A stretch of DNA of 64,000 bases from a virus (lineage: Duplodnaviria > Caudoviricetes), in IMG/VR virus record IMGVR_UViG_3300045938_000114, positions 1 through 64,000 of that record, one strand, 5' to 3'. Shown here piece by piece: positions 49,115 through 62,481 of the stretch. Below the pieces are notes generated by a model, which was given only the letters and a program-made list of their open reading frames with translations, had not been told where the DNA came from and did not search any database. The stretch's first letter is position 1. Each line of letters starts with the position of its first letter. The position numbers and the translations under genes were made by a program.

Positions 49115-50287
49115 TTATTGGGTAATGCGGGCCGTGGGCCACTGGTCGTAAGTCTTGCCTTCCAGCAGCCGCCCGGCCGCCTCCTTGCCCACGTTGCGCA
49201 TGCGGGCTACGGTAGCCTCGCAGCCATCCCCAAACTCGAAATACACACGGTCGTCGGGCACCTGTCCATAGCTTACTATTTTGCCATCCGGCCCCAGGAA
49301 AATATCGCCTTTGCGGGGAGAGCCACCGGTGCCGGCTTCCGAGAATTGTTCCGTCCAGTTGCCCCACTGTTTGAACAGGAAGGGTACGCCCGCCTCCTCG
49401 CACTGTAGTTGAATATCGCGCGCCCAGTCGGGGTGCATGGGCCGGGCGTGGTGGCCAGACTCGCCGCCGACGATAACCCAATCAATGCCAACCTGGCTAT
49501 CCTCGTAGCCCTCACCTGGGCCACTGGAAGTATTGGGGGTAGTACCATCCCGCTTTACTACGCCGGGGCCGGTCAGCGTCCGCTCATCGTGGTCGACGCG
49601 CCACAGGTTCACTGGCCCTAGCAACGGCTCACAACTGAGGAAACGAACGGCGGCTGGCGCGGCCAGCAACTGAGGGACGCGAATGTCCGCCTGTTCCTGA
49701 TTCTCGACGGAGGTGCCTAGCCAGACGTTGGTAGGCGGGGTGCCTGCTATCCACTTTTCCAGCCAGTGAGCAAACAAGCCCCTCCGCTCAATCATGGAAT
49801 AGGCCGCCATAAGCGCTGGCAGAATGTTCTCCGGCCGCTTGGTAAGCAAAAGCCAGTCAAGGTTTGGCGTTTCGTAGATGAGTTTTAGCAGGCGGTAGCG
49901 CTCGGCCGCGATGGCGACGAAACGCACCGTGCGCGTTTTGCCCTCGCCTACTGGTACCGTGCCGGTGGTACCGGCGTAGCTGAGGCTCTTGGCGCTCTGC
50001 ACCTCAAACACGTCGGCCATGCTGCTGCAGAACACGCGACGGCGTTCCCCCTGGGCAGCGGCGGCGGCGTTCCACTTCCGCGGCTTCGCCCAGTTGGCCT
50101 CGCTCCGGGCCAAGCGGGGGGCGTTGATGCCCCAGCAGGTGCCGGGGTTGTCGCCCTCATTAAGCGCCGAGTGCCATAGCCGGTGCTGCGCCTCAGCGTA
50201 GCAGTTTTTGCAGCCAGGCGATATTTTGGCACAACCTTCCCACGAATTGAAGGTGTGGTCGCACCATTCGATTTTGCTATTTTCCAT
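49115..50287 (-). CDS. DUF5131 / phage Gp37-Gp68 radical-SAM-like protein
   Basis: IEW.D.TFN.W.GC.KISPGCKNCYAE, SMAD.F, LLTKRP, NVWLG.SVE, SCEPLL, WVIVGGESG, FKQWG. Confidence 0.93.
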   Translation of the reverse strand: MENSKIEWCDHTFNSWEGCAKISPGCKNCYAEAQHRLWHSALNEGDNPGTCWGINAPRLARSEANWAKPRKWNAAAAAQGERRRVFCSSMADVFEVQSAKSLSYAGTTGTVPVGEGKTRTVRFVAIAAERYRLLKLIYETPNLDWLLLTKRPENILPALMAAYSMIERRGLFAHWLEKWIAGTPPTNVWLGTSVENQEQADIRVPQLLAAPAAVRFLSCEPLLGPVNLWRVDHDERTLTGPGVVKRDGTTPNTSSGPGEGYEDSQVGIDWVIVGGESGHHARPMHPDWARDIQLQCEEAGVPFLFKQWGNWTEQFSEAGTGGSPRKGDIFLGPDGKIVSYGQVPDDRVYFEFGDGCEATVARMRNVGKEAAGRLLEGKTYDQWPTARITQ

Positions 50288-50774
50288 CTTGAATAGTGGT
50301 AATGTCGATGTATTGTTCAGGCTCTAAGCCCACGGCGAAGCCCTTGTCCCGCAGGTAGTTTATTATCTCCATGTTGAGGTGGCCGGCGCCAAAGGCCCAG
50401 GTGCTAATGAAGAAGCGCCTCACGCCGGGGTAATCTTCCAGCGCCATCGCGTAGCCTACTGCGGGCGCGTCGTAGTGCAGGTGAGGCACCATATCCGGCC
50501 ATTCGTGGCCTTGTAGCCGGGCCACGGCGATAACGGGTATCTCACCAGCGGGCAACGCCTCCACCAGCGCGTTGAAGCCGCGCAGTAGGGGTATCAGCTC
50601 GGCGGGCGTTGCCCAGCCCCGCTCCCAGGTGCCGAAGGCGTCCAGGTACTCAATGTGCGCGCAGGCCTCTTCCCGAAAGTCGAAACCTACCAACTCGCAA
50701 CGGCGGCCGTCAGCAAGTTGGTAGGGTGCACGAGCGTAGGCCAGCAGCGTGGCCAGGGTCGTAGGGAAGGCCAC
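50277..50774 (-). CDS. Hypothetical protein
   Basis: Probable GTG start at 50774, just after the upstream stop. Confidence 0.55.
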   Translation of the reverse strand: MAFPTTLATLLAYARAPYQLADGRRCELVGFDFREEACAHIEYLDAFGTWERGWATPAELIPLLRGFNALVEALPAGEIPVIAVARLQGHEWPDMVPHLHYDAPAVGYAMALEDYPGVRRFFISTWAFGAGHLNMEIINYLRDKGFAVGLEPEQYIDITTIQDGK

Positions 50775-50775
50775 G

Positions 50776-51327
50776 CTATTCGACTCGGCGAAGCGTGATG
50801 TGCCAGAAGTACTCGTTACTGGGAATCTCCCCCTCTCTGTCGGGGTACTGTAAGGCAATTTCCCAGCTGACTATCTCGTAAACCAGTCGGCACGCCTGCC
50901 TGGGCATTTCCGTAGCCGGGAGCCAGGGGAAAGGACGGTCGTAGTGGTCGTAGAAAGTGCCATTTTTCTCGTAGCACCACAAGCCATGATTGCTATCGCG
51001 GTTTACGTCCGTGGACCGGTACAGGTAGCCGCAGTGCGAAACGTGCCCGGAGAAGCCGCGCTGAAACTCCTCCTGAATCCAAAGGTGGTCGCCAACTTCA
51101 CCGTGCGGGAACGGGTACTCTTTTGCGATTTCCTCAATCGTCCAGCCAGCAATAGGGGCGGGATTAGGCGAGCTGCCGAATACCTTCTTTGAGCGCGGGT
51201 TTGCACTGGGGCGCCAGCTTTCGACTTTCGCCAACAGCACCTCGTTTCTAGTGCGCAATAGGTCGGCTACTACGTGGCTCGGCAGGGCCAACGGCCGTTC
51301 CTGAACGGCTAATGCGGTATCATTCAT
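50776..51327 (-). CDS. ASCH/PUA-like phage protein
   Basis: P.G.VGD.LWI.E, W.P...MPR.A.RL..EI. Confidence 0.7.
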   Translation of the reverse strand: MNDTALAVQERPLALPSHVVADLLRTRNEVLLAKVESWRPSANPRSKKVFGSSPNPAPIAGWTIEEIAKEYPFPHGEVGDHLWIQEEFQRGFSGHVSHCGYLYRSTDVNRDSNHGLWCYEKNGTFYDHYDRPFPWLPATEMPRQACRLVYEIVSWEIALQYPDREGEIPSNEYFWHITLRRVE

Positions 51328-51356
51328 GGGGTGTGGGTGCCCGAAGGCTTATTGGG

Positions 51357-51394
51357 TGATGCAAGTTATGTAAGTCTTGTAAGTATTGCAAGTA
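51357..51394. repeat. 4-unit 9-bp iteron array
   Basis: TGATGCAAG TTATGTAAG TCTTGTAAG TATTGCAAG. Confidence 0.8.
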
Positions 51395-51414
51395 AATTTT
51401 TATACGAAACAAAA

Positions 51415-51702
51415 TTACTCACTCACTGCCGGGGGCTGGGGCACCAAAATAGCCTCGCGCAACTCAGGTAGTCGCGCGGCGAAATCTTCCAGCAACTGGT
51501 GCAGCTGAGTGGCATCATCAAACGCCCATCGCTTAGTTTTCAATACCGGATAGGCTACTTGGTGCGGTGGCAAGCCGGTATCCTCAATACTGAGTTTGAT
51601 ACGCTGCGTAGGCATGCCGTCCAACTGCATTTCGTCGGCGGGCTGCTCGTAGGTAATGCTGGCGGCGACTACGCGCACATCACGCGGTAAGGACTGGCTC
51701 AT
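51415..51702 (-). CDS. Hypothetical protein
   Basis: TY.Q..D, LKT.RWAFD. Confidence 0.65.
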   Translation of the reverse strand: MSQSLPRDVRVVAASITYEQPADEMQLDGMPTQRIKLSIEDTGLPPHQVAYPVLKTKRWAFDDATQLHQLLEDFAARLPELREAILVPQPPAVSE

Positions 51703-52873
51703 TCTTCGGGCGCCGATGTGGCTTAGGTGGGTATTGATACAGCAGGTAATCGAGGTACTTGGTAGACTTCAGCCAGGCGGGCCGCAGCTTGGCGATAACC
51801 GCCGGCTTGAGCTTGAACTGCCGAGCCAGCGCCGTGGCGGAGTAGTGCCCCTCGGGGTAGTCGGCCGTGGGGTAGATGGGCACGTAGTCTATGCCCTTCC
51901 GCAGCTTGCCTAAATCGTACAGGTCGTGGGCATCCAGCCACTGGCCGGGGTTTTGCTCATTATACCCGTAGACGTACAGGGCAGCCGGCTGGGCGGTCTT
52001 CTTTTTGGGCAGCAGGTGTACCTCCCGCGCCAGCACCAGGTGCTTCGGGCGGCGGCTGTTCACGGCATCGTAGCGCGGCAGGCCTAGCCGGTGCTCGCCG
52101 TAGCGCTCCCATACCCGGACAGCGTAGCCGGTGAGGTGCTGGCAGAACACGTCCGCGGATGCCTCGGCCCGCAGGTAGGCGGGGCACACGAATGAGACGC
52201 CCAGTAGCGGCTCTAACCGGTGGCGGTTGGTCAAGTCCAGCATCAGGTCGTGCTCCCGGTCCTTTTCAGCTTGGCGCATTTCACACCGGGCGAGGTAGTA
52301 TTCTACCTCACGGCTCAGATACGCCTCCTCTTTTGCGGCATCAATCCGCGCCCGCTCCTCGGGGTCCGTGCACCAGGCCCACACGTCGCGGGTCGCAAAG
52401 CAGTCCGGCAACGAGCCGTGTGCCTTACCCTGCCACTGGTGGCCGACGTGGGCCGCTGCTGACACGAGGCTATGCCAGTGCCAGTTACCGTGATAGTTAT
52501 CCCACCAAGCCACTTGCTCATCCTGAGCATATTTGAGCATCGCGCAATGCACCTCGGCGGGCGGGCCCAGCGCGAATGCCTCGCGCAGAATCGTGGTATC
52601 GTACACGGCAGAGTAAATCACGACGACGCGCCCGCGCAGGATGTCGGCTATGACGGGGTTCAGCTCCTCCAACGTGGGCAGGTCTGGCCGCAGCACCTGG
52701 GCGGGCGTGATGCCGTGAATCTTCTGGGCCGCTGGCCACACAGTATGGCGCACCGGGCGCACCAGCGTATCGAGCAGCACGACCCCGGTGTTGTCGATGA
52801 TGGACACGCTCAGCACCTCTGCCGTTTCGGGGTACTTATCTGTAGCCTCGGTATCTAGGACGAGGTAGCTCAT
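51680..52873 (-). CDS. DEDDh 3'-5' exonuclease with C-terminal extension
   Basis: LDTEAT, IHGIT, YD..IL, AHGSL.DC. Confidence 0.9.
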   Translation of the reverse strand: MSYLVLDTEATDKYPETAEVLSVSIIDNTGVVLLDTLVRPVRHTVWPAAQKIHGITPAQVLRPDLPTLEELNPVIADILRGRVVVIYSAVYDTTILREAFALGPPAEVHCAMLKYAQDEQVAWWDNYHGNWHWHSLVSAAAHVGHQWQGKAHGSLPDCFATRDVWAWCTDPEERARIDAAKEEAYLSREVEYYLARCEMRQAEKDREHDLMLDLTNRHRLEPLLGVSFVCPAYLRAEASADVFCQHLTGYAVRVWERYGEHRLGLPRYDAVNSRRPKHLVLAREVHLLPKKKTAQPAALYVYGYNEQNPGQWLDAHDLYDLGKLRKGIDYVPIYPTADYPEGHYSATALARQFKLKPAVIAKLRPAWLKSTKYLDYLLYQYPPKPHRRPKNEPVLTA

Positions 52874-53401
52874 TTAGCACTTGGTTTTGATTGCTTTAGT
52901 TCAGCGCGTTCCTGTTTGGCACGCTTTGTCTCTGCTTTGCGCCACTCACCTTCCATACCAGCGTGCAGTATGCCAGCTATATACTCCTGTTCGCTAGGGT
53001 TTTTACACCCCGTCAGCACTTTGCGAATCGCCTTCATGGCCCCCTTCCATACTGGCCGGAGTGCCAGCATTTCTTCTTCAGTTAATCTTGGCATTTCAGG
53101 AAAACAGTTATGAGTAAGGTGGGCAAGGGACAGATGTACACGCGGCGCTTGGGCCGGTCGATGAAGACGCCGACCCACAGGTCGTACCACGCGAAGGAGA
53201 AGGTGATTCTCATGATGGTTGATTGCGATTAACCTGATAGCCAAGCTCATTCAAACACTTGACCAGATGCTGTACCTCTGTTTTAGCTTGGTGCAATTCG
53301 TCATGAGTGAAGGGACCGCGATTATCCTCAGCGTTCATTTTTTCCAGTGCATTCAACACGGCGTTTGACTGCTCGTCCGGTAGATGGTTGTACAGTTTCA
53401 T
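52870..53401 (-). CDS. Two small hypothetical ORFs (52870-53250, start uncertain; 53210-53401)
   Basis: ORF track; lower GC patch. Confidence 0.45.
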
Positions 53402-53405
53402 AGGG

Positions 53406-53684
53406 TTAGAATAAACTTAGGGGTGGGCGGGGCTTGTCTTTTGGAGGTTTTGCGGGTGGGGCGGGCTGGTATTCTGCTCGCTTGAAACTGAAGTCGAGCA
53501 GTCGCTTCATCTGGTCATCCGCTATTTCGTAGGGGTCGCAGAACTTGTCTTGCGCAGGCTCCGGGCCGTGGGTGGTGCGCCGGCTGAGGTGCAGCTTACC
53601 TTGGCTATGCGTGACGTGATATAGAACCTCGTCGTGGATTCCGTAATAGTAGCCGAGGTGCGGCTTAGCTTCCTTTTCAGTCAT
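53406..53684 (-). CDS. Hypothetical protein ending LSLF
   Basis: 92 aa. Confidence 0.6.
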   Translation of the reverse strand: MTEKEAKPHLGYYYGIHDEVLYHVTHSQGKLHLSRRTTHGPEPAQDKFCDPYEIADDQMKRLLDFSFKRAEYQPAPPAKPPKDKPRPPLSLF

Positions 53685-53738
53685 ATTTTACAGATTATAC
53701 TACTGCAATACAACATATTACAGCGGCCAACCGTGCCC

Positions 53739-54545
53739 TTAGTTAAGTACTTTGAGCTGATAGGCCGCCTCTATTGTCAGGCCCGTAATCTCCGGCAGCG
53801 TCTTGCGGCTCATGTGCAGGGTGTAGCCCGTTTCCTGTTCCAGCGCGACATACTCGGCGTACAATTCCGGATTGTGCAGCGCCCCGTTGCGCAGGTCGTT
53901 GGCGCTGGCCATGATGCAGAAGACGCAACTGAGGCGGTCGTTACCCAGGGCGTAGGCGTAGTGGGGCTTCTCGCCGGCCGCCGCGATGATGCCGAACACC
54001 TCGGCGGTGCTGAGGTGGTGAATCGGCAGCCACTCGTACCAGGTACGGCCGGCCACCGAGCCTTTCTCATTTTTCCGCCATACCTGCATCTTAGCGCGGT
54101 TAGGACTCTCCTGGGCGCGCAGGCCCATGCAGGTTACTATCGTAGTGAAGCCGTGGGCTCGGGCGTACCGGCGCACCTCGCGCTCGATGGGGCCGCGCTT
54201 CAAGTCCGAGGTACACTGGCGGTTGCCGGCCTGCGGGAAGCTGGGGGCCGTGGGGTAGTTGGCGTGCCGGTGGCGCACGAGTTGCAGAAACGTCTTGGTA
54301 GCCGGGGCCAGTACGAACTTCACGCCGTAGCTAGCCGCTTGGTCGCGGGCCAACTCCAACGCGCCCGGCCACTCGGCCTCACCCAGCGGCGCGTGAATAC
54401 ACACGAGCTGCCGGGCGGGTACTAAGGCACGCAACCGGATAAGCATAGCCTGGCTGTCTTTACCGCCGCTGTGGTTCACCACGAACAACGCGCCGGCTGC
54501 TACCAGCGCCGCCGTATCAGGCGTATTTACAATTAGGTCGCTCAT
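53739..54545 (-). CDS. PAPS-reductase/PP-loop family protein, paralogue 1
   Basis: SGGKDS, R.CTSDLKRGP, G.RA.ES..RA, LPI, RLSC.FC. Confidence 0.92.
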   Translation of the reverse strand: MSDLIVNTPDTAALVAAGALFVVNHSGGKDSQAMLIRLRALVPARQLVCIHAPLGEAEWPGALELARDQAASYGVKFVLAPATKTFLQLVRHRHANYPTAPSFPQAGNRQCTSDLKRGPIEREVRRYARAHGFTTIVTCMGLRAQESPNRAKMQVWRKNEKGSVAGRTWYEWLPIHHLSTAEVFGIIAAAGEKPHYAYALGNDRLSCVFCIMASANDLRNGALHNPELYAEYVALEQETGYTLHMSRKTLPEITGLTIEAAYQLKVLN

Positions 54546-55642
54546 AGCAATTTAAATTGGGTGCCTGCTTTCGGCGCGGGCGCGGCGGCCAGTATCTGCT
54601 CTTTCAGCTCAGCCGCCCGGCCCACCACCGGCAACTCGGCCAGACTCCACCCATGCTTGAAGGTGGCCCCGCCGATAATTTCCAGTTCCAGGTAGTGGCC
54701 GTAGAGGTCGGGGTTATGGTTGGCCCCGTTGAGCAGGTCGCTCTTGGAGCCGAGGACGCACAGCGCGCAGCTGAGGCGCTCGTTGCCGTACACGTAGGCC
54801 GGGTGGAACTGCCAGCCCTCCAAGGCTTGGTCAACCAGCCCCGCTTTGTAGAGGCGGCGGCGGTATTCCAACTCGGCGCGGGTATGGCCCAGCGCCTGCC
54901 ATATATCATCCTCCGTAAAACGCAGCAGGGGCCGCCAGTTGAAGGCCAGCCGCGTACCCATCCCCCCGTTAAAGTTGCTGTAAGCGCCCTCCGGGGTAAG
55001 TGACTCCCGCAGTAGCGCGGCCGAAGTAATAGCGGTGCGCAGTTCAAGCGCGGGCTTGCCGGCCCTGGCGGCGCTCTCCCCGGCCCGCACGCCCTCGGCG
55101 CTAATCACTACGCCGGTGTACTCGCGCAGGGCCGTGTCGAGCGGCCCACGCTTTAGGTCGCTGGTGCAGTAGCGCGTGCTGGCCGAGGGCCAGTACTGCT
55201 CCGGGTTGCGCAGCGCGGTATCAATCGGCCCGCTTTTCAGGTGCGAAGTGCAGTAGCGGCTGCTGGCGCTGGGCCAGAATGGGGCGGGCGCTTCGTCCTC
55301 GGTAGCGTCAGGCTTGGGCCGGGTGGCCAGCAGCCGCTCCTCGATGCGCTGCACGAGGTCGCCTTTCGGGCGCTGCACCGTGACCAAAGGCACGTCGTAC
55401 AACTCGGCTTGGCGCCGCACCTCAAACGGCGTCTCGCCCCACTCGGCCCGGCCCAGGTCGGCGTGCAGGGCGAACAGCGGGCCGGGGTAGCCGTTGAGCC
55501 GGTGGTGCTCCACCAGCCGTTTCAACAGCACCTGACTATCCTTGCCGCCGCTGATGCTGATGGCCAGCGCCGCGCCGTTCTCCAGCGCGTCGGTTAGCGG
55601 CTCCGGGATGGCCAGCGGGGTATAGCTAATCTTCTGGTGCAT
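54542..55642 (-). CDS. PAPS-reductase/PP-loop family protein, paralogue 2, with internal 28-aa duplication
   Basis: SGGKDS, two copies of WPSAS.RYCTS.LK.GP.DTALR, G.RA.ES..RA, RLSC.LC. Confidence 0.92.
   Translation of the reverse strand: MHQKISYTPLAIPEPLTDALENGAALAISISGGKDSQVLLKRLVEHHRLNGYPGPLFALHADLGRAEWGETPFEVRRQAELYDVPLVTVQRPKGDLVQRIEERLLATRPKPDATEDEAPAPFWPSASSRYCTSHLKSGPIDTALRNPEQYWPSASTRYCTSDLKRGPLDTALREYTGVVISAEGVRAGESAARAGKPALELRTAITSAALLRESLTPEGAYSNFNGGMGTRLAFNWRPLLRFTEDDIWQALGHTRAELEYRRRLYKAGLVDQALEGWQFHPAYVYGNERLSCALCVLGSKSDLLNGANHNPDLYGHYLELEIIGGATFKHGWSLAELPVVGRAAELKEQILAAAPAPKAGTQFKLL
55124..55279. repeat. Diverged 84-bp-period tandem duplication
   Basis: Copies begin at 55124 and 55208. 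Confidence 0.85.
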
Positions 55643-55829
55643 GTTGTGGGGGGGGCCGTAGGGCGGCGCACTTGGGGCAGTGGGTAGGGCGGGCGGGCTG
55701 CTGCGTCAGCTGCTGGTGCCAGGTGATGCGGCGCAGCGGGTTGCAGAGCAGGTCGCCGTCGCGGGTGATGTAGTGCTCACCGTGAATGGTGATGCCCCAG
55801 CCCTCTTCTAAGTCGGCAGGTAGTGGCAT
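55626..55829 (-). CDS. Small Zn-finger-like protein
   Basis: H..., LC, CPKC. Confidence 0.55.
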   Translation of the reverse strand: MPLPADLEEGWGITIHGEHYITRDGDLLCNPLRRITWHQQLTQQPARPTHCPKCAALRPPPQHAPED

Positions 55830-55830
55830 T

Positions 55831-56787
55831 TCAGAAAAGCGTTAGTTGTAGGTTGGTGGCCACCGCAGGGGTGGGCATCAGCACCAGCTCAGGGGCGCGG
55901 GCCGGGCGGGGCGCGGCTACGGGCACCATTTTGGCCGTAACCTCAGGCCGGTACAGGCGGGGCGAGAAGAACATCACTTCATCGCCCGCCTGGCGGGTCT
56001 GTGCGCTGTAGTGCAGGTTGAATTCCAGCGACTCGTACTGCTGGTAGAGCGCCCGGATAGCCGGCACGTTATCGTAGGAAACTATCCAATGCCCGCGCAG
56101 GGTGCTACGCAGCTTGCCCACCATGTCGGCCACGGCCGCGTGCTCAGCGTGCCCGTAGGCGTTGGCGTAAAGCCCCTGGCCTTTTTCATAATAGGGCGGG
56201 TCCAGGTAAATCAGGTTGCAGATGTCTACCTCAGGCTCTATTGCCTCCAAAAACTTCGGCGCATCAAGGTTATACAGCCGTATTTGAAACTCCCGGTAGG
56301 CTATTTTTTGAATCCGGCGTGAAAGGTCTTCGCGGTTGAAACGGTCGTCTACCTGGCAGCTACCGTCCTGCTGCTGCCCACCGATAACGCCCCCGGTCAA
56401 GATGCCGGAGCGGTTGGTGCGGTTCAAAAAGAAACAGGCTTGGCCTAGCTCCAGCCGCGAGGCGCTGGGGTCGGCCAGTATCTGGCGCTGGCGGTGCCAC
56501 TGCTTCATCGTGACCGGCGTATCCCGCACGAAGCGCAGCAGCTCATCCGTTTGATAGAGCACGCAGTACCAGAAGGCGTACACGGCGGGGTCAGCGTCAT
56601 TGAGGTAAACCCGGCCGGCATATTGCCCGGCCAGCAGGGCCCACGCGACGCTGGCGCCCCCACAGTAGGGTTCGATGTAGTGCCCGTCGCACAGCCCGTT
56701 CATCTCAAAAACGCGGCAGATGTACTGCGCTAGCTTGCGCTTGCCACCGGGGTAGCGCAGGGGCGAGCGGTAGGGGTGTAAAGCCAT
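55831..56787 (-). CDS. D12-class N6-adenine DNA methyltransferase (Dam-like)
   Basis: SPLRYPGGK, EPYCGG, LND, NRSG, YLDPPY; ends QLTLF. Confidence 0.95.
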   Translation of the reverse strand: MALHPYRSPLRYPGGKRKLAQYICRVFEMNGLCDGHYIEPYCGGASVAWALLAGQYAGRVYLNDADPAVYAFWYCVLYQTDELLRFVRDTPVTMKQWHRQRQILADPSASRLELGQACFFLNRTNRSGILTGGVIGGQQQDGSCQVDDRFNREDLSRRIQKIAYREFQIRLYNLDAPKFLEAIEPEVDICNLIYLDPPYYEKGQGLYANAYGHAEHAAVADMVGKLRSTLRGHWIVSYDNVPAIRALYQQYESLEFNLHYSAQTRQAGDEVMFFSPRLYRPEVTAKMVPVAAPRPARAPELVLMPTPAVATNLQLTLF

Positions 56788-56788
56788 T

Positions 56789-57094
56789 TTAGAAAAGCGT
56801 TAGCTGTTTGCGGGTAAGCGTCTTCGGGCTACGGCCTAGCGCCGTGGGGCCCTTTGGGCACATTTTCACTAAGCCACTGTCGACGGCGGCCTGCTCACGC
56901 TCGACGTGCACGTAGCCGCCCACGTTGATGTGCTCGCTGGGACGCACGCAGGGCGAGCCGGCCGGGGCGAAGCACTTGGAGCAGGGCACCACCCAAAACG
57001 GGTGCGTTTCCCAGTGCTCCCCGCAGGTGTTACAGGTGAAGCCCTGCCCGTTGCGGCCCCGGCCCTTGCGGCTTTTAGATGCGGGCTTATTCAT
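56789..57094 (-). CDS. Zn-finger protein ending QLTLF
   Basis: C..C, C..C.A..G.PC.RPS.H...H.ER. Confidence 0.75.
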   Translation of the reverse strand: MNKPASKSRKGRGRNGQGFTCNTCGEHWETHPFWVVPCSKCFAPAGSPCVRPSEHINVGGYVHVEREQAAVDSGLVKMCPKGPTALGRSPKTLTRKQLTLF

Positions 57095-58413
57095 AGCCGA
57101 GTAGCTAAGTAGTTATCCAGCACCCGTTCAATGCCCCCGTACAGCCCCCGCCGATTTTTATTGAAGCGGTTCGTTTCCAGCACCTTCATTGACTGTTGAA
57201 TCAAGTCGTAGTGGTCCGGCTCGTCGGCGCACACCTCGCGCAGCAGCGCATCGGCCTCCGCCCGGTTGGCCTGTATCCGCGGCAGGGCTACCGCCGTGGG
57301 GTACACCTCAGCGTGCACGGCCGTAACCGAGTAGTCGTAGATGCCGTCCTGGTGCCACTGCCCCTGGATGGCCACCAGCTCGCGGGCCGAGATGAAGCTG
57401 AGCGTCGGGTCGTAGCCCTGCTGTATCTCGCGCTGCGCCAGCAGCAGCCGGCGCAGCACCTCCGCCCGAACCTCGGGCAGGTATGGCCCCCAGCGGCCTT
57501 CCAACTGGTAGCCCCGGCGCAGGGTCTTGCTGCGGTAGCGCTCGGGGTTGTCGCGGGTTTCCACGAGGTAGTCGCGCAGGTCGGCCAGCGGCTCCATCCA
57601 CTCCTCGCCGTGTTGCAGGAGGCCTTTCATTGACTTGTCCTCTTTCACCACCGTGCACACGTAGCAGCCGAAGCGGCTCTTGCCGCACGAGGGCGTTTCG
57701 GTATCGACCACTAGCGGGCAATCCTCGTCGGTGCTGGCGTTGCGGTAGAGCGTAATCAGCTCCTTGTGGGTGCCGCCCCAGGGCGGGGGCACCTGGCTGA
57801 GGTACTGCCACACCCCGGCCGTTTCTACGTCGCGGATGGGGGCGTACACGTAGGCGTTGGGCAGCAGGTGCTTACGCAGCCGGTGGCCGTGTACGGCGTG
57901 CTTGGCCATTGAGCGGGCACGGCGGGCGCTCTCCGCCGAGCGCGTGCCTAGCAGGATAATTACCTCGCCGGCCTGGCTCACCTTCGCCTTGATGAAGGCC
58001 GTGGTCGGGTTGATTTTCAGCCGGTCGGTACACCAGCGGAAAGTACTGCTGGGGGCTGGGTAGCCCTTGCCGATAAGCGAAAACCAAAACGCCTGTTCAA
58101 CGACGGGCGTAGTGCGCACCACGACGAAGGGCATTTGATGGGCGGGCGCGGCGGCCTCGATGCGTTGCAGCGTTGCCTCGATAAAGCCCACGATGCGCGG
58201 GTTCTCCACCAGCGTATCGTTGCACACGACGTACACCGGCCGGTGGCGCTGGGCGGCCGGCAGCTTGGCCACGGCCAGCCACACGAGTTGCAGCAGCATC
58301 GTGGAGTCCTTACCGCCGCTGAACCCGACTATCCAGGGCCGGTTGTTGTCGTCGGCCGTGTACTGGTCCTGAATCTCGGCCAGCATGAACGGGAGCATGA
58401 TGGAGCTACTCAT
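57091..58413 (-). CDS. dndC: DNA phosphorothioation sulfurtransferase DndC homologue (orphan)
   Basis: RPWIVGFSGGKDST, DTLVENP, LIGKGYPAP...FRWCTDRLKI.P, GTR.AES, CPLV.D..TPSCG.SRFGC..CTVV..DKSM, GPY; likely start 58413. Confidence 0.92.
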   Translation of the reverse strand: MSSSIMLPFMLAEIQDQYTADDNNRPWIVGFSGGKDSTMLLQLVWLAVAKLPAAQRHRPVYVVCNDTLVENPRIVGFIEATLQRIEAAAPAHQMPFVVVRTTPVVEQAFWFSLIGKGYPAPSSTFRWCTDRLKINPTTAFIKAKVSQAGEVIILLGTRSAESARRARSMAKHAVHGHRLRKHLLPNAYVYAPIRDVETAGVWQYLSQVPPPWGGTHKELITLYRNASTDEDCPLVVDTETPSCGKSRFGCYVCTVVKEDKSMKGLLQHGEEWMEPLADLRDYLVETRDNPERYRSKTLRRGYQLEGRWGPYLPEVRAEVLRRLLLAQREIQQGYDPTLSFISARELVAIQGQWHQDGIYDYSVTAVHAEVYPTAVALPRIQANRAEADALLREVCADEPDHYDLIQQSMKVLETNRFNKNRRGLYGGIERVLDNYLATRL

Positions 58414-58594
58414 GGTCGCGCCCCTCCTGCCAAATGTCCCACAGGGCAAACACCCCGAATAAGCCCCACCCGAATAATACCAGGACGGCCCGCACAGCCC
58501 TGCGCCGTGGGCTGATGCCCGCCATTGGGGTAGAGGGCAGGATGAAGATGCCCACGCACAGGTAAGCGGTTATGAGGTAGTGCCACCACATCAT
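58406..58594 (-). CDS. Small two-TM membrane protein
   Basis: Hydrophobic; coupled overlaps. Confidence 0.55.
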   Translation of the reverse strand: MMWWHYLITAYLCVGIFILPSTPMAGISPRRRAVRAVLVLFGWGLFGVFALWDIWQEGRDHE

Positions 58595-58941
58595 GCTGCT
58601 ACCCCTCCTTCAATTTGAAAAAGCGTGAGTGGCTGTTTAAGCAGCTTTGCCTGCCCCAGCCTAGTTTCTAATTCTGACTTTGCAAGCCGCAGGCGCAACT
58701 GCTGCACGTCCTTTTCAGAATAATCCGGTAGGGAAAGCAGGCGCTCGCACAGGCTGATGTCGCTGCGTAGTTGCTCGGTTGTTCGGCCTACGTAGTACCT
58801 GCTCAGGGATTGCTCCAGGCTTAATCCGGTGCGCATATCGGCTATCACCTTATCCGCACAATTGGGGTCGAAACGGGAGATAAAGCCCGCGCCCACGGCC
58901 GTTTGCGGCAGCAGGAATGAAGTTTGAGGGCGTTTGCTCAT
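58591..58941 (-). CDS. Hypothetical protein
   Basis: Real start likely 58941 (MSKRPQTSF), ATGA overlap with the Dcm stop. Confidence 0.6.
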   Translation of the reverse strand: MSKRPQTSFLLPQTAVGAGFISRFDPNCADKVIADMRTGLSLEQSLSRYYVGRTTEQLRSDISLCERLLSLPDYSEKDVQQLRLRLAKSELETRLGQAKLLKQPLTLFQIEGGVAA

Positions 58942-61301
58942 GCGGCGGCCCTCCCTCCAAATAAGTCCAGCTGCTCCCAGGCGTGCACCGTAGCCTCGCA
59001 CAGCGGGCGCAGCTTGCGCTTGCGGGCGGCGCGCAGGCTGGGCGTCATGGCGCGGGCCAGGGCCTCGGCTATCTGCGGCACTACGGCGTTGCCTAGCATC
59101 TCCTTTTTCTTGGTATCGCTGCCAGCTAGATAGTAGTCGGCGGGAAAGCCCATTATCAACTTCAGCTCCTCCACCTTCAGCATTCGCATGTAGATGTCGG
59201 CGATGCCGTGGCGGCGGCAGTAGGCTTTGAGCAACCGCATAGCTTCCGAGTCGCCCGGCTCGTGGGCGACGGGCGAGCCGGGCGCGGCGAGCACCAGGTA
59301 CTGGTGGCGGCGGCTGGCCACGATGGTCTTCGCCGGCCCACGTAGCGAGTAGGGAGCGCTGGCCCCATGGCTGGGCGTGAGGAACCCCAGCAGTCCCACC
59401 CGGTCGTGGGTAGTCAGCGTGGGGCACGGCCGGCATAGTGACTGCACGGTGCCGTTGCCGTAGTAGGTCATCAGGTACAGGTTGCCGCCGTTGGTCGTGA
59501 CGGTGGGCGCCTGGCCATCAAGGGACATGGTGAGCCGGGCCGCGTCATCGTCGGCGCGGGTGCCGTTGCTTTGCAGCAGGGCAGCCGTGAGCAGCGACTG
59601 GTTGGGCTGCGCGGTGATGGTGCGGCTGGCGGTGGTGCTGGGCCACGTCTTGGCGGCCGGGCTGGTGCCCTCGCTTACCCCGTTGCTTTGGGCCAGGAAC
59701 TCCACCTGCACCGTGCTGAAACGGTTCTCAGTGGTCACGGTATTCACCGGGCCTTCCAGGCTCAGCACCCGGCAGTTATCGGAGCCGCCGTTATGCTGCT
59801 GCACGAATACTGGCGTAAGTAGGCGGCTCTTAGGTTGGGTAGTCAGGCAAGGGTGCGGGGCGCACATAGCTGAGGTCTGGCCCCGGCCGCTGTAGAAGTG
59901 CGTGAGGTATTGCTGCCCACCGCTGCCGGTGATGGTAGCCGAAGGCTCGTCGAGCGAGCGCCCCCGGTTCTCGCCCCCGTAGTTGTGCATCAGGTAGGCC
60001 GTAGCCAGATTATGATGGTCGGCGGTGGTGATAGTGCTCGCGGGCTTGCTCAGCGGGTAGCTCTGGTGGGTAGGGTCGCCGCCGTAGGACTTTACCATTA
60101 TCTCGGCGCTCACCAACCCGAGCGGCCCCTTATCCTGGCGGGCTACTATTGTGGGTGAGGGGGCCGTACTGCTAGCCGAAGCGCCGCCCCAGGCGGGGTT
60201 AGCCACGAACTCAGCCGTCACGAGGTCAGGATGCCACGAGGCCGCTATCACGTCGCTGGGCCGGTTGATGCTGGCGCCTACGCCAGGCTTACCGCTGGGC
60301 GGGTTGCTCTGGTTTTTGTGGATGAAGGCCGGCGTGAGCAGGTCGGGCAGGTAGCAGGTAGCGATAGTGCTCGACGGGTTAGTGCCGGGCACGCTGCCCT
60401 CAGGGCGCTGCGTGCCCGTGCGCTTCACCAGTACCTCGCTCTCACCCGCCCCTATAACGTGCTTTTTCAGGCCAGCCAGAATGCGGCGCAGGGTTTTGTC
60501 AGCCGGTTTATCGCCGGGCTTGCGGTTCTTGCCCTGGTCCCATTGCGTGAAGATGCTGCGGCCCCGGTCGCCCAGGTCGAGCACGTCACGCACCGGCAGC
60601 CAGGTAGGCAGCTTACCCTTACCGTCGCGGTCGTGGGTAGGCTTGGGCCATTTGATTTTGATGCCGGCCCGCGTGAAGATGCCGAAGTAACGCTTGCGGC
60701 TTTGGGGTGCGCCGAAGTCGGCCGCGTTCAAAATCCGGTATTCGTAGTTGACGAAGCCCATCTTCTTCATTACCTCCAACCAGTGGTTGTAGTACTCGGA
60801 CTTACGCTCCTTAATCGGGTCGTAGATGGGCTCGCCCTTCTTATCGAAGACCAGCTCCCCGCGCTTGTTGCGCCGCTGCTGCACCGGCCCCCAGGTTAGG
60901 AACTGCGACACGTTCTCAATCATGATGCAGTTCACGTTGAGGGCGAGCGCGAAGCGGGGCAGTTCCTCGGCCAAGGCGCGCTCCTTGGCGTCGCGGCTCT
61001 GGCCACCTTTCGCAATAGAATGGTGCGTGCAATCCGGGCTGGCCCACATCACGTCGGCCATCACGCCCACCTTCCACTCACTTTGTTTGCGGATGTCGCA
61101 CAGCAGGTGCTTGGCGTAGGGGAAGTTGTGTTTGTGGGTAGCGATAGCTACCGGCGAGTGGTTGAGGGCCAGCATCGCCAGCCAGCCGGCCCAGCTCAGG
61201 CCCTTGCTGGCCCCACCGCCGCCCGCGAAGAAGTCAGCGTAGCGGATAGGCGCGTCAGGCTCTACCTCGGCTGTGGCGATTTTACGGATGGTCTTAACCA
61301 T
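58938..61301 (-). CDS. C5-cytosine DNA methyltransferase with expanded repetitive variable region
   Basis: FFAGGGG (I), SPDC (IV), ENV (VI), PQSRKR (VIII), RML...EL...MGFP..Y (IX), GNAV (X). Confidence 0.95.
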   Translation of the reverse strand: MVKTIRKIATAEVEPDAPIRYADFFAGGGGASKGLSWAGWLAMLALNHSPVAIATHKHNFPYAKHLLCDIRKQSEWKVGVMADVMWASPDCTHHSIAKGGQSRDAKERALAEELPRFALALNVNCIMIENVSQFLTWGPVQQRRNKRGELVFDKKGEPIYDPIKERKSEYYNHWLEVMKKMGFVNYEYRILNAADFGAPQSRKRYFGIFTRAGIKIKWPKPTHDRDGKGKLPTWLPVRDVLDLGDRGRSIFTQWDQGKNRKPGDKPADKTLRRILAGLKKHVIGAGESEVLVKRTGTQRPEGSVPGTNPSSTIATCYLPDLLTPAFIHKNQSNPPSGKPGVGASINRPSDVIAASWHPDLVTAEFVANPAWGGASASSTAPSPTIVARQDKGPLGLVSAEIMVKSYGGDPTHQSYPLSKPASTITTADHHNLATAYLMHNYGGENRGRSLDEPSATITGSGGQQYLTHFYSGRGQTSAMCAPHPCLTTQPKSRLLTPVFVQQHNGGSDNCRVLSLEGPVNTVTTENRFSTVQVEFLAQSNGVSEGTSPAAKTWPSTTASRTITAQPNQSLLTAALLQSNGTRADDDAARLTMSLDGQAPTVTTNGGNLYLMTYYGNGTVQSLCRPCPTLTTHDRVGLLGFLTPSHGASAPYSLRGPAKTIVASRRHQYLVLAAPGSPVAHEPGDSEAMRLLKAYCRRHGIADIYMRMLKVEELKLIMGFPADYYLAGSDTKKKEMLGNAVVPQIAEALARAMTPSLRAARKRKLRPLCEATVHAWEQLDLFGGRAAA

Positions 61302-62481
61302 GAATCGCTACCTCCTCACTTTGGGCTAGTGCCAGGCCACCGGCCCCACGCTCGCGGCGGCCTTGCTTAGCGGTGCCGCAGAACGGCGACGTCATGTATA
61401 AAATGGACGGCGTAGTCATGGCCGGCAGTTCGCCTACCGTCAACATGCGGTCGGTGGGCACGGCCTGCATGTGGGGTTGCAGGCCGTGGTTGATGCTGAC
61501 AACCGGCTTTTCGGCAAGCTGCTGCTGTTCCTGCTTGGCCTTCATGAACTCCTCCCAGCTACGCCGACCGCCGCGCATGTATGCGAAGCGCTCCTCGTGA
61601 TTAGCTGGCAGGTTGCGGATGTAGAAGGCTGAGCCGGGGCTGGTGTCCTCCTTCGGCGTGCCGCGCTTTTTAGGCGCGACCGTGGCTTGAACAGGAGCCG
61701 GCGCGGGCGGGGTAGGCTTAGCAACGGCCACTACCTTTTTAGGAGTCGGCTCCTTCACAACCTTCGGGGCTGGGGCCGGGCGGGCAGCCTTCGCCGCTTT
61801 CTGCACCGGCTCTTTCTTCGGGCGCACGGTTGACGTAGCTGCATCCGAGCGCCGGGCGCGGCGGCGCAACTTTAGCTTGTTGGCGTAAGCTACTACACGT
61901 TTCACTGACTTGCCTATCAGCGCAGCCAGCTCAGACATCGGCATTGACGTTTCGTAGTGGGCCCGCACCAATGCATCCTTCTCACCTGACCAACTCGTCT
62001 TGCGCGGCCCCTTTTTAGGGCGCTTGATAACCAGACGTTTTATTTTCAACTTCCTGGCGCGCTTCACGAGGTCGCTCACCTTCGTGCGGCCGAGCAGCGC
62101 GGCGAGTTCACGCAACGGCATTGCGGTCGGGTAGTGCGCAAGCATCAACTCATCTGCTTCCGCTGTCCAACGTTTGTAGCCCGAGTTACGGCGCAGCTTC
62201 AAATCCTCCGCCTTGTTTCTGACCGAGGCTAGCGAGCGGCCTAGCAAGTCGGATACCCCTTTGTAACCCAGGGCCTCGTAGTTCTCGCGCAACGTAGCCG
62301 TCTCCGACTCCGTCCAATCCTGGTCGCTTATGCGCTTAATACTCAGCTCTCTGGCCTTAACGGCAATAGCGCTCCAGGTATGGGCTGGGATTTCAGCCAG
62401 CAGTGCTGCCCGTTTTGCCTTCGGGTATAAATCGCTCAATAACACTACTTCGGCGGGTGTCCAACGATTGTAATTTCTCAT
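61294..62481 (-). CDS. DNA-binding protein with four tandem Myb/SANT-like HTH repeats
   Basis: 4x W[TS]..E...L...Y......LA..LGR....V...A..L.L.R. Confidence 0.8.
   Translation of the reverse strand: MRNYNRWTPAEVVLLSDLYPKAKRAALLAEIPAHTWSAIAVKARELSIKRISDQDWTESETATLRENYEALGYKGVSDLLGRSLASVRNKAEDLKLRRNSGYKRWTAEADELMLAHYPTAMPLRELAALLGRTKVSDLVKRARKLKIKRLVIKRPKKGPRKTSWSGEKDALVRAHYETSMPMSELAALIGKSVKRVVAYANKLKLRRRARRSDAATSTVRPKKEPVQKAAKAARPAPAPKVVKEPTPKKVVAVAKPTPPAPAPVQATVAPKKRGTPKEDTSPGSAFYIRNLPANHEERFAYMRGGRRSWEEFMKAKQEQQQLAEKPVVSINHGLQPHMQAVPTDRMLTVGELPAMTTPSILYMTSPFCGTAKQGRRERGAGGLALAQSEEVAIHG

What the first reader, a model, noticed from the sequence alone, without database searches (positions are those of the whole stretch)
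49115..61301. Candidate new system: phage-borne DNA sulfur + methyl modification cluster with three PP-loop enzymes
Seen: one co-oriented, mostly translationally coupled run of Dcm, DndC, Zn-finger, Dam, Zn-finger, PAPS-reductase paralogue 2 and paralogue 1, followed by a DEDDh exonuclease, an ASCH-like protein and DUF5131 (Cx6CxxC). Established: DndC/SspD-type PP-loop Fe-S enzymes catalyse DNA phosphorothioation, and orphan phage methylases are anti-restriction devices. Inference: three SGGKDS enzymes interleaved with both methylase classes, with no cognate restriction genes and no sulfur-assimilation genes, look like a combinatorial self-modification kit. It could install PT or another adenylation/thiolation-derived mark that protects phage DNA against Dnd/Ssp/RM defences.
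Basis: partly seen in the sequence, partly recalled or inferred. Interest (0 to 1): 0.9.

Follow-up and report, generated by a model that had tools for sequence, protein, structure and literature searches.

The report
Phage anti-restriction island with orphan DndC
An uncultured phage of Hymenobacter-like soil bacteria packs two DNA methylases, a genuine but partner-less copy of the DNA-sulfur enzyme DndC and two further "PAPS-reductase" enzymes into one operon. This is most likely a stack of separately acquired tools for disguising its DNA from host restriction, not one new pathway.

Summary
The gene run is real. On the minus strand lie a C5-methylase, DndC, a small Zn-finger-like protein, a D12 adenine methylase, two PAPS-reductase paralogues, a DEDDh exonuclease and DUF5131. 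They are co-oriented and mostly overlap start to stop. "ASCH-like" and the second "Zn-finger" stay unconfirmed.

The DndC is bona fide (TIGR03183, 434 bits against a cut-off of 290) and keeps every invariant Cys and PP-loop residue. The 94.9-kb record has no DndD, DndE or cysteine desulfurase.

Each part also occurs alone or in other combinations in other phages, so I read it as an anti-restriction island, not one obligate system. A phage PAPS-domain::Dam fusion that defeats Dnd is already published (Piel et al. 2022). This scan has noted PAPS-reductase/methylase islands in about 80 other genomes.

New here:
- Orphan full-length DndC recurs in phage and mobile-element replication modules, often beside methylases.
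- QLxLF clamp-binding-like peptides end five cluster proteins and begin about 40% of PAPSr2 homologues. This points to DNA at the replication fork, not sulfur assimilation.
- The C5-methylase carries about 11 tandem target-recognition-like repeats.
- GATC is completely absent from the record (0 sites, about 193 expected).

No chemistry has been shown.

The parts
61294..62481 (-). GcrA-like / Myb-type HTH-repeat protein (395 aa) heading the coupled run
   Evidence: PF07750 GcrA 30.2 bits (cut-off 26.9); phrog_323 transcriptional regulator. Its stop overlaps the Dcm start by 8 nt.
58938..61301 (-). C5-cytosine DNA methyltransferase (787 aa) with about 11 tandem TRD-like repeats; C-terminus ...EQLDLFGGRAAA
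   Evidence: PF00145 split 20-136 / about 700-760; phrog_116. Motifs FAGGGG, PDC, ENV, QSRKR and GNAVVP, and repeated PxxT[ILV]T units, are read. The two halves of the insert align at E 1e-10. A 6-repeat relative sits in a Hymenobacter siberiensis prophage.
58591..58941 (-). 116-aa ORF of no known family, ending ...KQPLTLFQIEGGVAA
   Evidence: Translation; no Pfam, PHROG or PADLOC hit.
58406..58594 (-). 62-aa hydrophobic ORF
   Evidence: Translation.
57091..58398 (-). Orphan full-length DndC (435 aa; the ORF is open to 58449)
   Evidence: TIGR03183 434 bits against a cut-off of 290, profile positions 3-446 of 447. PADLOC DndC 478 bits. SGGKDS and C140, C244, C255, C262, C265 are invariant in alignment A1. 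It is 64-70% identical to Cytophagales DndC.
56789..57094 (-). 101-aa Zn-finger-like protein; 4-nt overlap with the dndC stop; ends ...RKQLTLF
   Evidence: PF24623 23.7 bits (cut-off 24). No homologue besides itself in the 5.8-billion-protein set.
55831..56787 (-). D12-class N6-adenine DNA methyltransferase (318 aa); ends ...NLQLTLF; specificity unknown and not useful at GATC
   Evidence: PF02086; PADLOC PD-Lambda-5_B 362 bits. DPPY read. The only PDB sequence relative is 7m6b, with no E. coli, T4 or DpnM Dam. The record has zero GATC.
55626..55829 (-).
   Evidence: Translation; no family hit.
54542..55642 (-). PAPSr2: PP-loop enzyme with three conserved Cys and a duplicated WPSxxxRYCTS(H/D)LK module (366 aa)
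   Evidence: PF01507, phrog_424. The duplication is shared by 9 of 10 homologues in alignment A2. The model has pLDDT 80 and a PP-loop fold nearest TtuA, TilS and APS reductase.
53739..54545 (-). PAPSr1: PP-loop enzyme with three conserved Cys (268 aa)
   Evidence: PF01507, phrog_424 at E 8e-41. It is 63% identical to Pseudomonas phage Dolphis gp103 and to a Klebsiella phage protein. SGGKDS, CTSDLKRGP and RLSCVFC are read.
53406..53684 (-). 92-aa ORF ending ...RPPLSLF
   Evidence: no family hit.
51680..52873 (-). DEDDh (RNase T / DnaQ-like) exonuclease with an unknown C-terminal half
   Evidence: PF00929; phrog_192; PADLOC DEDDh.
50776..51327 (-). 183-aa protein, phrog_874; ASCH/PUA-like is only a lead
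49115..50287 (-). DUF5131 (Gp37/Gp68) protein with an N-terminal Cx6CxxC; radical-SAM superfamily member
   Evidence: PF07505 264 bits; phrog_2045. RadicalSAM.org places DUF5131 in megacluster 5-2 (PMC9477430).

Best explanation
This is the accessory anti-restriction island of the early/replication operon of a myovirus-like phage that infects Hymenobacter-like Cytophagales. It is built from independently mobile DNA-modification genes and is not one pathway.

(1) Methylases. The C5-methylase, with about 11 tandem target-recognition-like modules, and the D12 adenine methylase methylate phage DNA at many sequences. This protects it from host restriction enzymes.

(2) DndC. The orphan DndC is a catalytically intact copy captured from a Bacteroidota dndCDE cluster. 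In Dnd-positive hosts it most likely plugs into the host's IscS/DndA, DndD and DndE. That would speed phosphorothioate marking of replicating phage DNA so that PT-based restriction spares it.

(3) PAPS reductases. The two paralogues belong to phage-typical, usually solitary PP-loop families with three conserved Cys, candidate [4Fe-4S] ligands. They act on DNA as further counter-defence enzymes, in the way the Vibrio phage PAPS::Dam fusion counters Dnd.

(4) Clamp tethering. QLxLF-type peptides at the ends of the methylases and several small proteins probably tether the machinery to the host beta sliding clamp. The same peptide sits at the N-terminus of many PAPSr2 homologues. Marks would then be laid down as DNA is copied.

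Shown: gene content, family membership, conserved residues, absence of partners, recurrence of the parts elsewhere, the motifs, and the GATC void. Inferred: every biochemical activity, clamp binding, and use of host Dnd proteins.
For: Phage identity and host range.

DndC:
- It scores above the equivalog cut-off and keeps the PP-loop and five invariant Cys.
- It is 67% identical to a DndC inside a canonical dndC-D-E-B-A cluster (L005).
- Canonical dndCD follows DndC in most of 80 Bacteroidota loci. DndD lies beside DndC in 6 of 8 DndC-positive genomes (one copy partial) among 201 of the host-related family.
- The phage record has no DndD, DndE or DndA.

Orphan DndC above the cut-off recurs in mobile contexts:
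- L110, 70% identical: HTH_36, DndC, DnaB, VRR_NUC, D12 methylase.
- L008, next to ArdC, SSB and an S24 peptidase.
- L007/L114, with a DUF4942 methylase.
- Provirus L012, between two N6_N4 methylases; the record is 93% complete and has no DndD.
- L015: RNase_T, dUTPase, DndC, ThyX, then Dcm.

PAPSr families occur alone or beside methylases.

Published phenotype: a PAPS::Dam fusion gives anti-Dnd resistance. Phage PAPS reductases sit in Aca-regulated anti-defence loci.

Not CysH: no ECGLH motif and no CysH model hit.

Clamp-like peptides:
- Five of the cluster's proteins end in or near [QP]L[TSD]LF. None of the roughly 140 other ORF C-termini listed does.
- Ten of 25 PAPSr2 homologues start with QLxLF or QFDLF.
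- One homologue lies two genes after two phage beta-clamp genes.

Multi-repeat Dcm.

C-containing palindromes are not avoided, while GATC is totally absent. This fits reliance on C-methylation for some sites and site loss for another.
Against: - No modification has been measured; the phage is known only from metagenomes.
- Only about 3% of sampled genomes of the host-related family carry dndCD, so a host-dependent DndC would pay off in few hosts.
- DndC itself carries no clamp-like peptide.
- The three PP-loop genes are tightly coupled in one operon. That would also fit a joint function.
- The record is only 68% complete by CheckV, so partner genes could lie in the missing third.
- PT-sensing defences (SspE, ScoMcrA-type) would penalise a PT-marked phage.
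- The clamp motif is not conserved on the Dcm of the related H. siberiensis prophage.
Confidence: 0.55

Rival explanations
1. Autonomous new sulfur-marking system. DndC, PAPSr2 and PAPSr1, with the small Zn-finger proteins, the clamp-binding tails and perhaps DUF5131, together install PT or another thio- or amino-mark on phage DNA without DndD/E-type partners.
For: - Tight translational coupling of all three PP-loop genes with both methylases.
- All catalytic residues are kept.
- The clamp-like peptides could replace the DNA-handling role of DndD and DndE.
- Near-complete proviruses carry DndC without any DndD.
- In B. thetaiotaomicron, BrxP plus BrxC (cloned together with McrA) produced PT, which shows the machinery is modular.
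Against: - Every established PT system needs an NTPase, and none is in the record.
- No other locus examined carries the three genes together.
- Each family is found alone in other phages.
- Znf101 has no homologues, so it cannot be a conserved partner.
Confidence: 0.15
2. The orphan DndC is a decoy or inhibitor. It titrates host DndD/DndE or the IscS persulfide and so disables the host Dnd system instead of marking phage DNA.
For: High identity (64-70%) to host-type DndC, which would allow it to enter host complexes. Orphan copies sit next to anti-restriction genes such as ArdC.
Against: - All catalytic residues are invariant, which a pure decoy would not need.
- Blocking PT synthesis does not protect unmodified phage DNA from DndFGH-type restriction (established logic of Dnd systems).
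Confidence: 0.1
3. The PP-loop enzymes modify RNA (for example tRNA thiolation or lysidine-like chemistry) to escape tRNA-targeting defences, and do not modify DNA.
For: - The PAPSr2 model's nearest solved folds are the tRNA enzymes TtuA and TilS.
- Weak TilS N-terminal and PF01171 signals.
Against: - Those matches are weak: TM-score by query about 0.3, and APS/PAPS reductases match equally well.
- The genes are embedded among DNA methylases and replication genes.
- A PAPS domain is fused to a Dam in a Vibrio phage.
- Many homologues carry clamp-binding-like peptides.
- The record has no tRNA genes.
Confidence: 0.07
4. Auxiliary metabolic genes: phage CysH-type PAPS reductases that boost host sulfate assimilation.
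For: This is the usual database annotation (phrog_424, 'moron, auxiliary metabolic gene'). It is still argued in recent work.
Against: - No ECGLH catalytic motif and no hit to CysH models.
- A canonical SGGKDS PP-loop plus C...CxxC.
- No other sulfur-assimilation gene or desulfurase.
- The context is DNA methylases and replication genes.
Confidence: 0.03

Closest known systems
Vibrio phage 44E38.1 p0018, a PAPS-reductase-domain::Dam fusion that confers resistance to host Dnd (Piel et al. 2022, Nat Microbiol; preprint 10.1101/2021.05.05.442762)
   Same: A phage-borne PAPS-reductase-type PP-loop enzyme physically linked to an adenine methylase. It is exchanged as an accessory anti-defence cassette, and an RNase T-type exonuclease lies nearby.
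   Different: - There it is one fused protein with a T1-type Dam domain. Here the genes are separate, include a true full-length DndC plus two other subfamilies, and the methylase is D12 class.
- No sequence match at E<=1e-3 between the window's PP-loop proteins and Vibrio phages.
- Its mechanism is also unresolved.
DndABCDE DNA phosphorothioation system (DndC = TIGR03183)
   Same: The phage DndC scores above the equivalog cut-off, is full length, keeps the PP-loop and all conserved Cys, and is 67% identical to a DndC in a canonical cluster.
   Different: The record has no DndD, DndE, DndB or DndA. The gene is flanked instead by a Zn-finger-like ORF and methylases.
Multispecific C5-methyltransferases of Bacillus phages SPR, phi3T, rho11s and H2 (own knowledge)
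   Same: A single catalytic core carrying several tandem target-recognition modules, used by a phage for self-protection.
   Different: The Bacillus enzymes carry only a few TRDs (own knowledge). This one has about 11 TRD-like PxxT[ILV]T repeats, and a prophage relative has 6. The specificities are untested.
Solitary phage 'PAPS reductases' (PHROG 424; e.g. Pseudomonas phage Dolphis gp103, Klebsiella phage ST11-OXA245phi3.2, Streptomyces phage Gilgamesh gp116)
   Same: PAPSr1 is 63% identical to the Pseudomonas and Klebsiella phage proteins. PAPSr2 is 31% identical over its full length to Gilgamesh gp116. These genes often sit beside methylases.
   Different: Elsewhere there is one copy per phage. 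Here there are two paralogues plus DndC in one operon.
Bacterial beta-clamp-binding motif QL[SD]LF, and replication-coupled methylation by DNMT1-PCNA (own knowledge; phage Mu MuC uses such a motif, PMC12867686)
   Same: Pentapeptides QLDLF, QLTLF (twice), PLTLF and PLSLF at or near C-termini. QLSLF, QLDLF, QLGLF and similar peptides sit at the N-termini of PAPSr2 homologues.
   Different: Binding is untested, and no clamp gene is in the record. To my knowledge the motif has not been reported on PAPS-reductase-type enzymes.

Membership tests
DndC (TIGR03183 equivalog) | Whole-protein score above the curated cut-off, full-length match | tested here: met
   434 bits against 290.4; profile positions 3-446 of 447.
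DndC (TIGR03183 equivalog) | PP-loop SGGKDS and the conserved Cys set (Fe-S ligands and the Cys dyad) | tested here: met
   S44-S49 and C140, C244, C255, C262, C265 are invariant in a 20-sequence alignment.
DndABCDE phosphorothioation system | dndD (ABC/SMC-like ATPase) adjacent to dndC | tested here: not met
   No TIGR03185 hit and no tblastn hit in the 94.9-kb record. The record is 68% complete.
DndABCDE phosphorothioation system | dndE and a cysteine desulfurase (dndA; host iscS can substitute) | tested here: not met
   No TIGR03184 or PF00266 hit. The DndE model rang in no control genome, so that absence is weaker; tblastn with a Cytophagales DndE was also negative.
DndABCDE phosphorothioation system | PT dinucleotides in DNA | not testable with these tools
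   Needs LC-MS/MS or iodine cleavage.
Assimilatory PAPS/APS reductase (CysH) | C-terminal catalytic ECGLH motif; match to CysH models | tested here: not met
   The motif is absent from all three proteins. No CysH NCBIfam hit at E<=0.01.
PP-loop ATP pyrophosphatase superfamily (PF01507 PAPS_reduct) | Pfam hit over the gathering score; SGGKDS; PP-loop fold | tested here: met
   32-42 bits against a cut-off of 22.5 for all three. The PAPSr2 model matches TtuA, TilS and APS reductase.
C5-cytosine DNA methyltransferase (PF00145) | Motifs I (FxGxG), IV (catalytic Cys), VI (ENV), VIII (QxRxR) and X (GNAV) | tested here: met
   FAGGGG, SPDC, IENV, QSRKR and GNAVVP in the translation; PF00145 at E 7.6e-29.
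Multispecific C5-methyltransferases | Several tandem TRDs, each conferring a separate target | tested here: inconclusive
   About 11 repeats by eye, and internal similarity at E 1e-10. The targets are untested.
D12-class N6-adenine methyltransferase (PF02086) | Pfam hit over the cut-off; DPPY motif | tested here: met
   67 bits against a cut-off of 22; YLDPPYY.
GATC-specific Dam | Acts on GATC in the carrier genome | tested here: not met
   Zero GATC in 94,888 bp. TIGR00571 scores 54 bits against a cut-off of 115.
Beta-clamp-binding proteins | Terminal QL[SD]LF-type pentapeptide | tested here: met
   Dcm, Znf101, the D12 methylase and two small ORFs carry it; so do 10 of 25 PAPSr2 homologues.
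Beta-clamp-binding proteins | Physical binding to the clamp | not testable with these tools
   Needs a pull-down or ITC with a Cytophagales DnaN.
DUF5131 (PF07505; radical-SAM superfamily) | Pfam hit; N-terminal Cys triad | tested here: met
   264 bits; C19-x6-C26-x2-C29. Superfamily placement per PMC9477430.
ASCH domain (PF04266) | Profile or fold match | tested here: inconclusive
   No Pfam hit. The only leads are an Atlas feature score of 0.86 to a cluster in which 19% of members carry ASCH, and TM 0.64 to a cluster named ASCH.

The most novel reading that the evidence does not exclude
Replication-clamp-tethered DNA sulfur marking that needs no DndD/SspC-type ATPase. The phage's DndC and PAPS-reductase enzymes would be brought to the fork by QLxLF peptides, either their own or those of small adaptor proteins. 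They would write phosphorothioate, or a so far unknown thio- or amino-mark, into nascent phage DNA, with the sliding clamp replacing the DNA-handling partners of cellular PT systems. If true, the abundant phage 'PAPS reductase AMGs' would be a large class of replication-coupled DNA modifiers.
Probability: 0.12. Interest if true: 0.85.

Novelty: new variant of a known kind. Interest (0 to 1): 0.55.

Why it matters
Phage 'PAPS reductases' are among the most often reported viral 'auxiliary metabolic genes', yet their function is unsettled. Recent papers still read them as sulfur-assimilation genes, while one genetic study shows an anti-Dnd role.

This locus gives three sequence-level arguments for a DNA-directed, replication-coupled role:
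- a genuine DndC sits in the same operon;
- the genes are embedded among methylases;
- clamp-binding-type peptides occur on the cluster proteins and on many PAPSr2 homologues.

It also shows that full-length DndC has been captured repeatedly, without its partners, by phages and other mobile elements. That raises a testable question: can a single phage-supplied subunit hijack a host phosphorothioation machine?

The roughly 11-module cytosine methylase and the total loss of GATC show how many layers of restriction evasion one phage can stack.

Tried and rejected
- **Complex prediction, DndC (alignment A1) with Znf101:** no support and no verdict (score 0.00). This is not evidence either way.
- **Viral-contig scan with DndC as a single protein:** nothing found. 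The alignment-based scan gave only 9 distant viral loci.
- **Znf101:** no homologue besides itself, so a conserved DndC/Zn-finger pair could not be tested.
- **100%-identical DndC on a 113.7-kb contig:** could not be fetched.
- **DndC tree, orphan against canonical:** sequences were prepared, but the script machine was lost. Whether the orphans form one clade is therefore unknown.
- **Sequence search of PDB:** nothing useful for PAPSr1 or DndC.
- **Fold search of the PAPSr2 model:** could not separate thiolase-like from reductase-like relatives.
- **Sulfur-assimilation AMG reading:** rejected, because there is no ECGLH motif, no CysH model hit and no pathway genes.
- **Classical RM system or known defence system:** rejected, because no nuclease or defence partner was found.
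- **Self-protection of GATC by the 'Dam':** rejected, because the genome has no GATC.

Full report
**What the window is.** The window is the first 64 kb of a 94,888-bp IMG/VR virus record that CheckV rates 68% complete, with linear ends. It encodes a contractile-tail virion: sheath, baseplate wedge, tape measure, portal, protease and major head protein. GC content is about 62%. The closest named relatives of its DndC and PAPS-reductase genes are in Hymenobacter, Spirosoma, Dyadobacter, Larkinella and Pontibacter.

**Observation.** All genes of the finding lie on the minus strand and mostly overlap start to stop. In transcription order they are:
- a GcrA-like HTH-repeat protein (PF07750);
- a 787-aa C5-methylase (PF00145);
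- a 116-aa ORF and a 62-aa ORF;
- DndC;
- a 101-aa Zn-finger-like protein (PF24623, just under the cut-off);
- a D12 adenine methylase (PF02086);
- a 67-aa ORF;
- two PAPS-reductase paralogues, 29% identical to each other;
- several small ORFs;
- a DEDDh exonuclease;
- a phrog_874 protein;
- a 193-aa unknown;
- DUF5131.

The 'ASCH-like' label has only weak Atlas support, and the second 'Zn-finger' has none. PADLOC finds methylases and DndC/SspD/BrxP-like hits but no nuclease or other defence partner. The record has exactly three PF01507 genes and no DndD, DndE or Aminotran_5 desulfurase.

**The DndC is genuine and orphan.**
- It scores 434 bits on TIGR03183 (cut-off 290) over the full profile, and 478 bits on PADLOC DndC.
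- In an alignment with 19 homologues, the PP-loop SGGKDS and five cysteines are invariant.
- A relative at 67% identity sits in a canonical dndC-dndD-dndE-dndB-dndA cluster (L005).
- DndD follows DndC directly in most of 80 Bacteroidota genome loci.
- I sampled 201 genomes of the family of Pontibacter indicus. Eight have a full DndC. DndD lies beside it in six (one copy partial) and not in two.

So the phage gene derives from host-type Dnd systems, which occur in a few per cent of the host-related family.

**Orphan DndC recurs on mobile elements.** The closest relative (70% identity, L110) lies in a phage-like replication module: HTH_36, DndC, DnaB, VRR_NUC, then a faint D12 methylase. Other orphans:
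- next to ArdC, SSB and an S24 peptidase (L008);
- in a Hymenobacter island with a DUF4942 methylase (L007/L114);
- in an islet with a DUF3846 protein (L115);
- in IMG/VR provirus L012, between two N6_N4 methylases, and in L015 among dUTPase, ThyX, RNase T and Dcm.

The two records L012 (93% complete) and L014 (100% complete) have no DndD anywhere. All of the orphans tested pass the DndC cut-off. The literature mentions solitary DndC or SspD hits in prophages only in passing.

**The two PAPS-reductase paralogues are phage-typical and usually solitary.**
- PAPSr1 is 63% identical to proteins of Pseudomonas phages Dolphis and Jeremy and of a Klebsiella lambdoid phage. In Dolphis and PseuP_222 it abuts a DNA methylase; elsewhere it stands alone.
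- PAPSr2 has relatives at about 60% identity in Hymenobacter and Spirosoma prophages. In H. siberiensis the order is a PAPS reductase of another subtype, a 6-repeat Dcm, a 56-aa ORF, then the PAPSr2 homologue.
- In a metagenomic phage the PAPSr2 homologue follows two phage beta-clamp genes and an N6_N4 methylase.
- In small temperate prophages it is solitary, once beside an RNase T exonuclease.

No other locus examined combines DndC with both paralogues. Their shared features are SGGKDS, CTSDLKRGP and RLSCxxC, with no ECGLH motif and no CysH model hit. The duplicated Cys-bearing module of PAPSr2 is a subfamily trait: 9 of 10 homologues have it, and one has three copies. An AlphaFold model (pLDDT 80) has a PP-loop fold. 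It resembles the [4Fe-4S] tRNA thiolase TtuA, TilS and APS/PAPS reductases about equally, and weakly.

**Known precedent.** PT synthesis in Dnd, Ssp and BREX type 4 needs a PAPS-reductase-type enzyme plus an NTPase, with a desulfurase supplied in cis or by the host. A Vibrio podovirus gene that fuses a PAPS domain to a Dam domain converts a Dnd-sensitive phage into a Dnd-resistant one. A 2026 survey notes PAPS reductases in Aca-regulated anti-defence loci. Other authors still treat prophage PAPS reductases as sulfur AMGs. This scan has logged 82 similar notes in at least 81 genomes, generally judged to be swappable accessory cassettes. My reading agrees.

**Clamp-binding-like peptides.**
- The Dcm ends ...EQLDLFGGRAAA.
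- The 116-aa ORF ends ...QPLTLFQIEGGVAA.
- Znf101 and the D12 methylase both end in QLTLF.
- The 92-aa ORF ends in PLSLF.
- None of the roughly 140 other ORF C-termini listed for the genome ends this way.
- Independently, 10 of 25 PAPSr2 homologues begin with QLSLF, QLDLF, QLGLF, QLALF, QLPLF, QLRLF or QFDLF within their first 16 residues.

These match the bacterial beta-clamp-binding consensus QL[SD]LF (own knowledge). The record has no dnaN, so the host clamp would be used. This is sequence evidence only. It still argues that the enzymes work on DNA at the fork. The scan has seen clamp-tail methylases in other phages.

**Other notable features.** The Dcm insert of about 450 residues consists of about 11 PxxT[ILV]T-type units resembling tandem target-recognition domains, and its two halves align at E 1e-10. 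GATC is absent from all 94,888 bp, against about 193 expected. In the last 15 kb, GGCC is over-represented, CCGG is normal and GCGC is only mildly low. GAAC/GTTC is mildly low. The 'Dam' therefore cannot be protecting GATC in this genome. It scores below the Dam subfamily cut-off, and its only PDB relative is not a classical Dam.

**Verdict.**
- Best reading (0.55): a stacked anti-restriction island of independently mobile DNA modifiers, with a host-derived DndC that probably depends on host Dnd partners, and probable clamp tethering.
- Autonomous three-enzyme sulfur system: not excluded (0.15), but it lacks the NTPase that every known PT system needs and lacks conserved co-occurrence.
- Decoy (0.10), RNA-modification (0.07) and AMG (0.03) readings are less likely.

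Novelty: a new variant of a known kind.

Noticed in passing
whole record: window 1-64000 plus L112 and L113 (64001-94888): GATC is completely absent: 0 sites against about 129+33+31 expected from dinucleotide-preserving shuffles. GGCC, CCGG and GCGC are present at normal to high levels. This implies very strong selection by a GATC-directed host nuclease, whether methyl-sensitive or methyl-dependent.
   Followed up: partly
window 59230-60410 (-), residues about 300-690 of the Dcm: About 11 tandem PxxT[ILV]T units that look like target-recognition domains. A Hymenobacter siberiensis prophage Dcm has 6 (L104:8128-9834). This may be an unusually multispecific C5-methylase.
   Followed up: partly
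PAPSr2 homologues P0127-P0129, P0132, P0134, P0140, P0144, P0154, P0161, P0166: N-terminal QLxLF or QFDLF pentapeptides (beta-clamp-binding consensus) within the first 16 residues of a phage PAPS-reductase subfamily. The window's own copy lacks it and ends in GTQFKLL.
   Followed up: partly
L105:5412-7806 and L106:5406-7806: A metagenomic Cytophagales-type phage encodes two adjacent beta-clamp (DnaN) paralogues just upstream of an N6_N4 methylase and a PAPSr2 homologue.
   Followed up: no
window 61294-62481 (-): The protein heading the operon matches GcrA (PF07750), the family of the methylation-sensing Caulobacter cell-cycle regulator, and carries repeated Myb-like HTH units. It may regulate the modification operon.
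   Followed up: partly
L111:347-5299: A variant dnd cluster whose DndC is 70% identical to the phage's: DndC, an HNH_2 protein, a 316-aa unknown, then a DndE domain fused to an AAA/HerA-like ATPase. There is no classical DndD.
   Followed up: no
L007:11323-11622: The small ORF right after the orphan DndC of Hymenobacter sp. J193 ends ...GTQATLFS, again resembling a clamp-binding tail.
   Followed up: no
P0207 (384 aa PAPSr2 relative): It carries three, not two, copies of the WPxxxxRYCT(A/S)xxK module, so the Cys-bearing module expands and contracts within the subfamily.
   Followed up: no
window 44042-45727 (-): An SNF2-family helicase (phrog_62; PADLOC DpdE, ZorD and BrxH-like hits) lies 3.4 kb downstream of the island. 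A similar SNF2 gene lies near the PAPSr2 homologue in L105.
   Followed up: no
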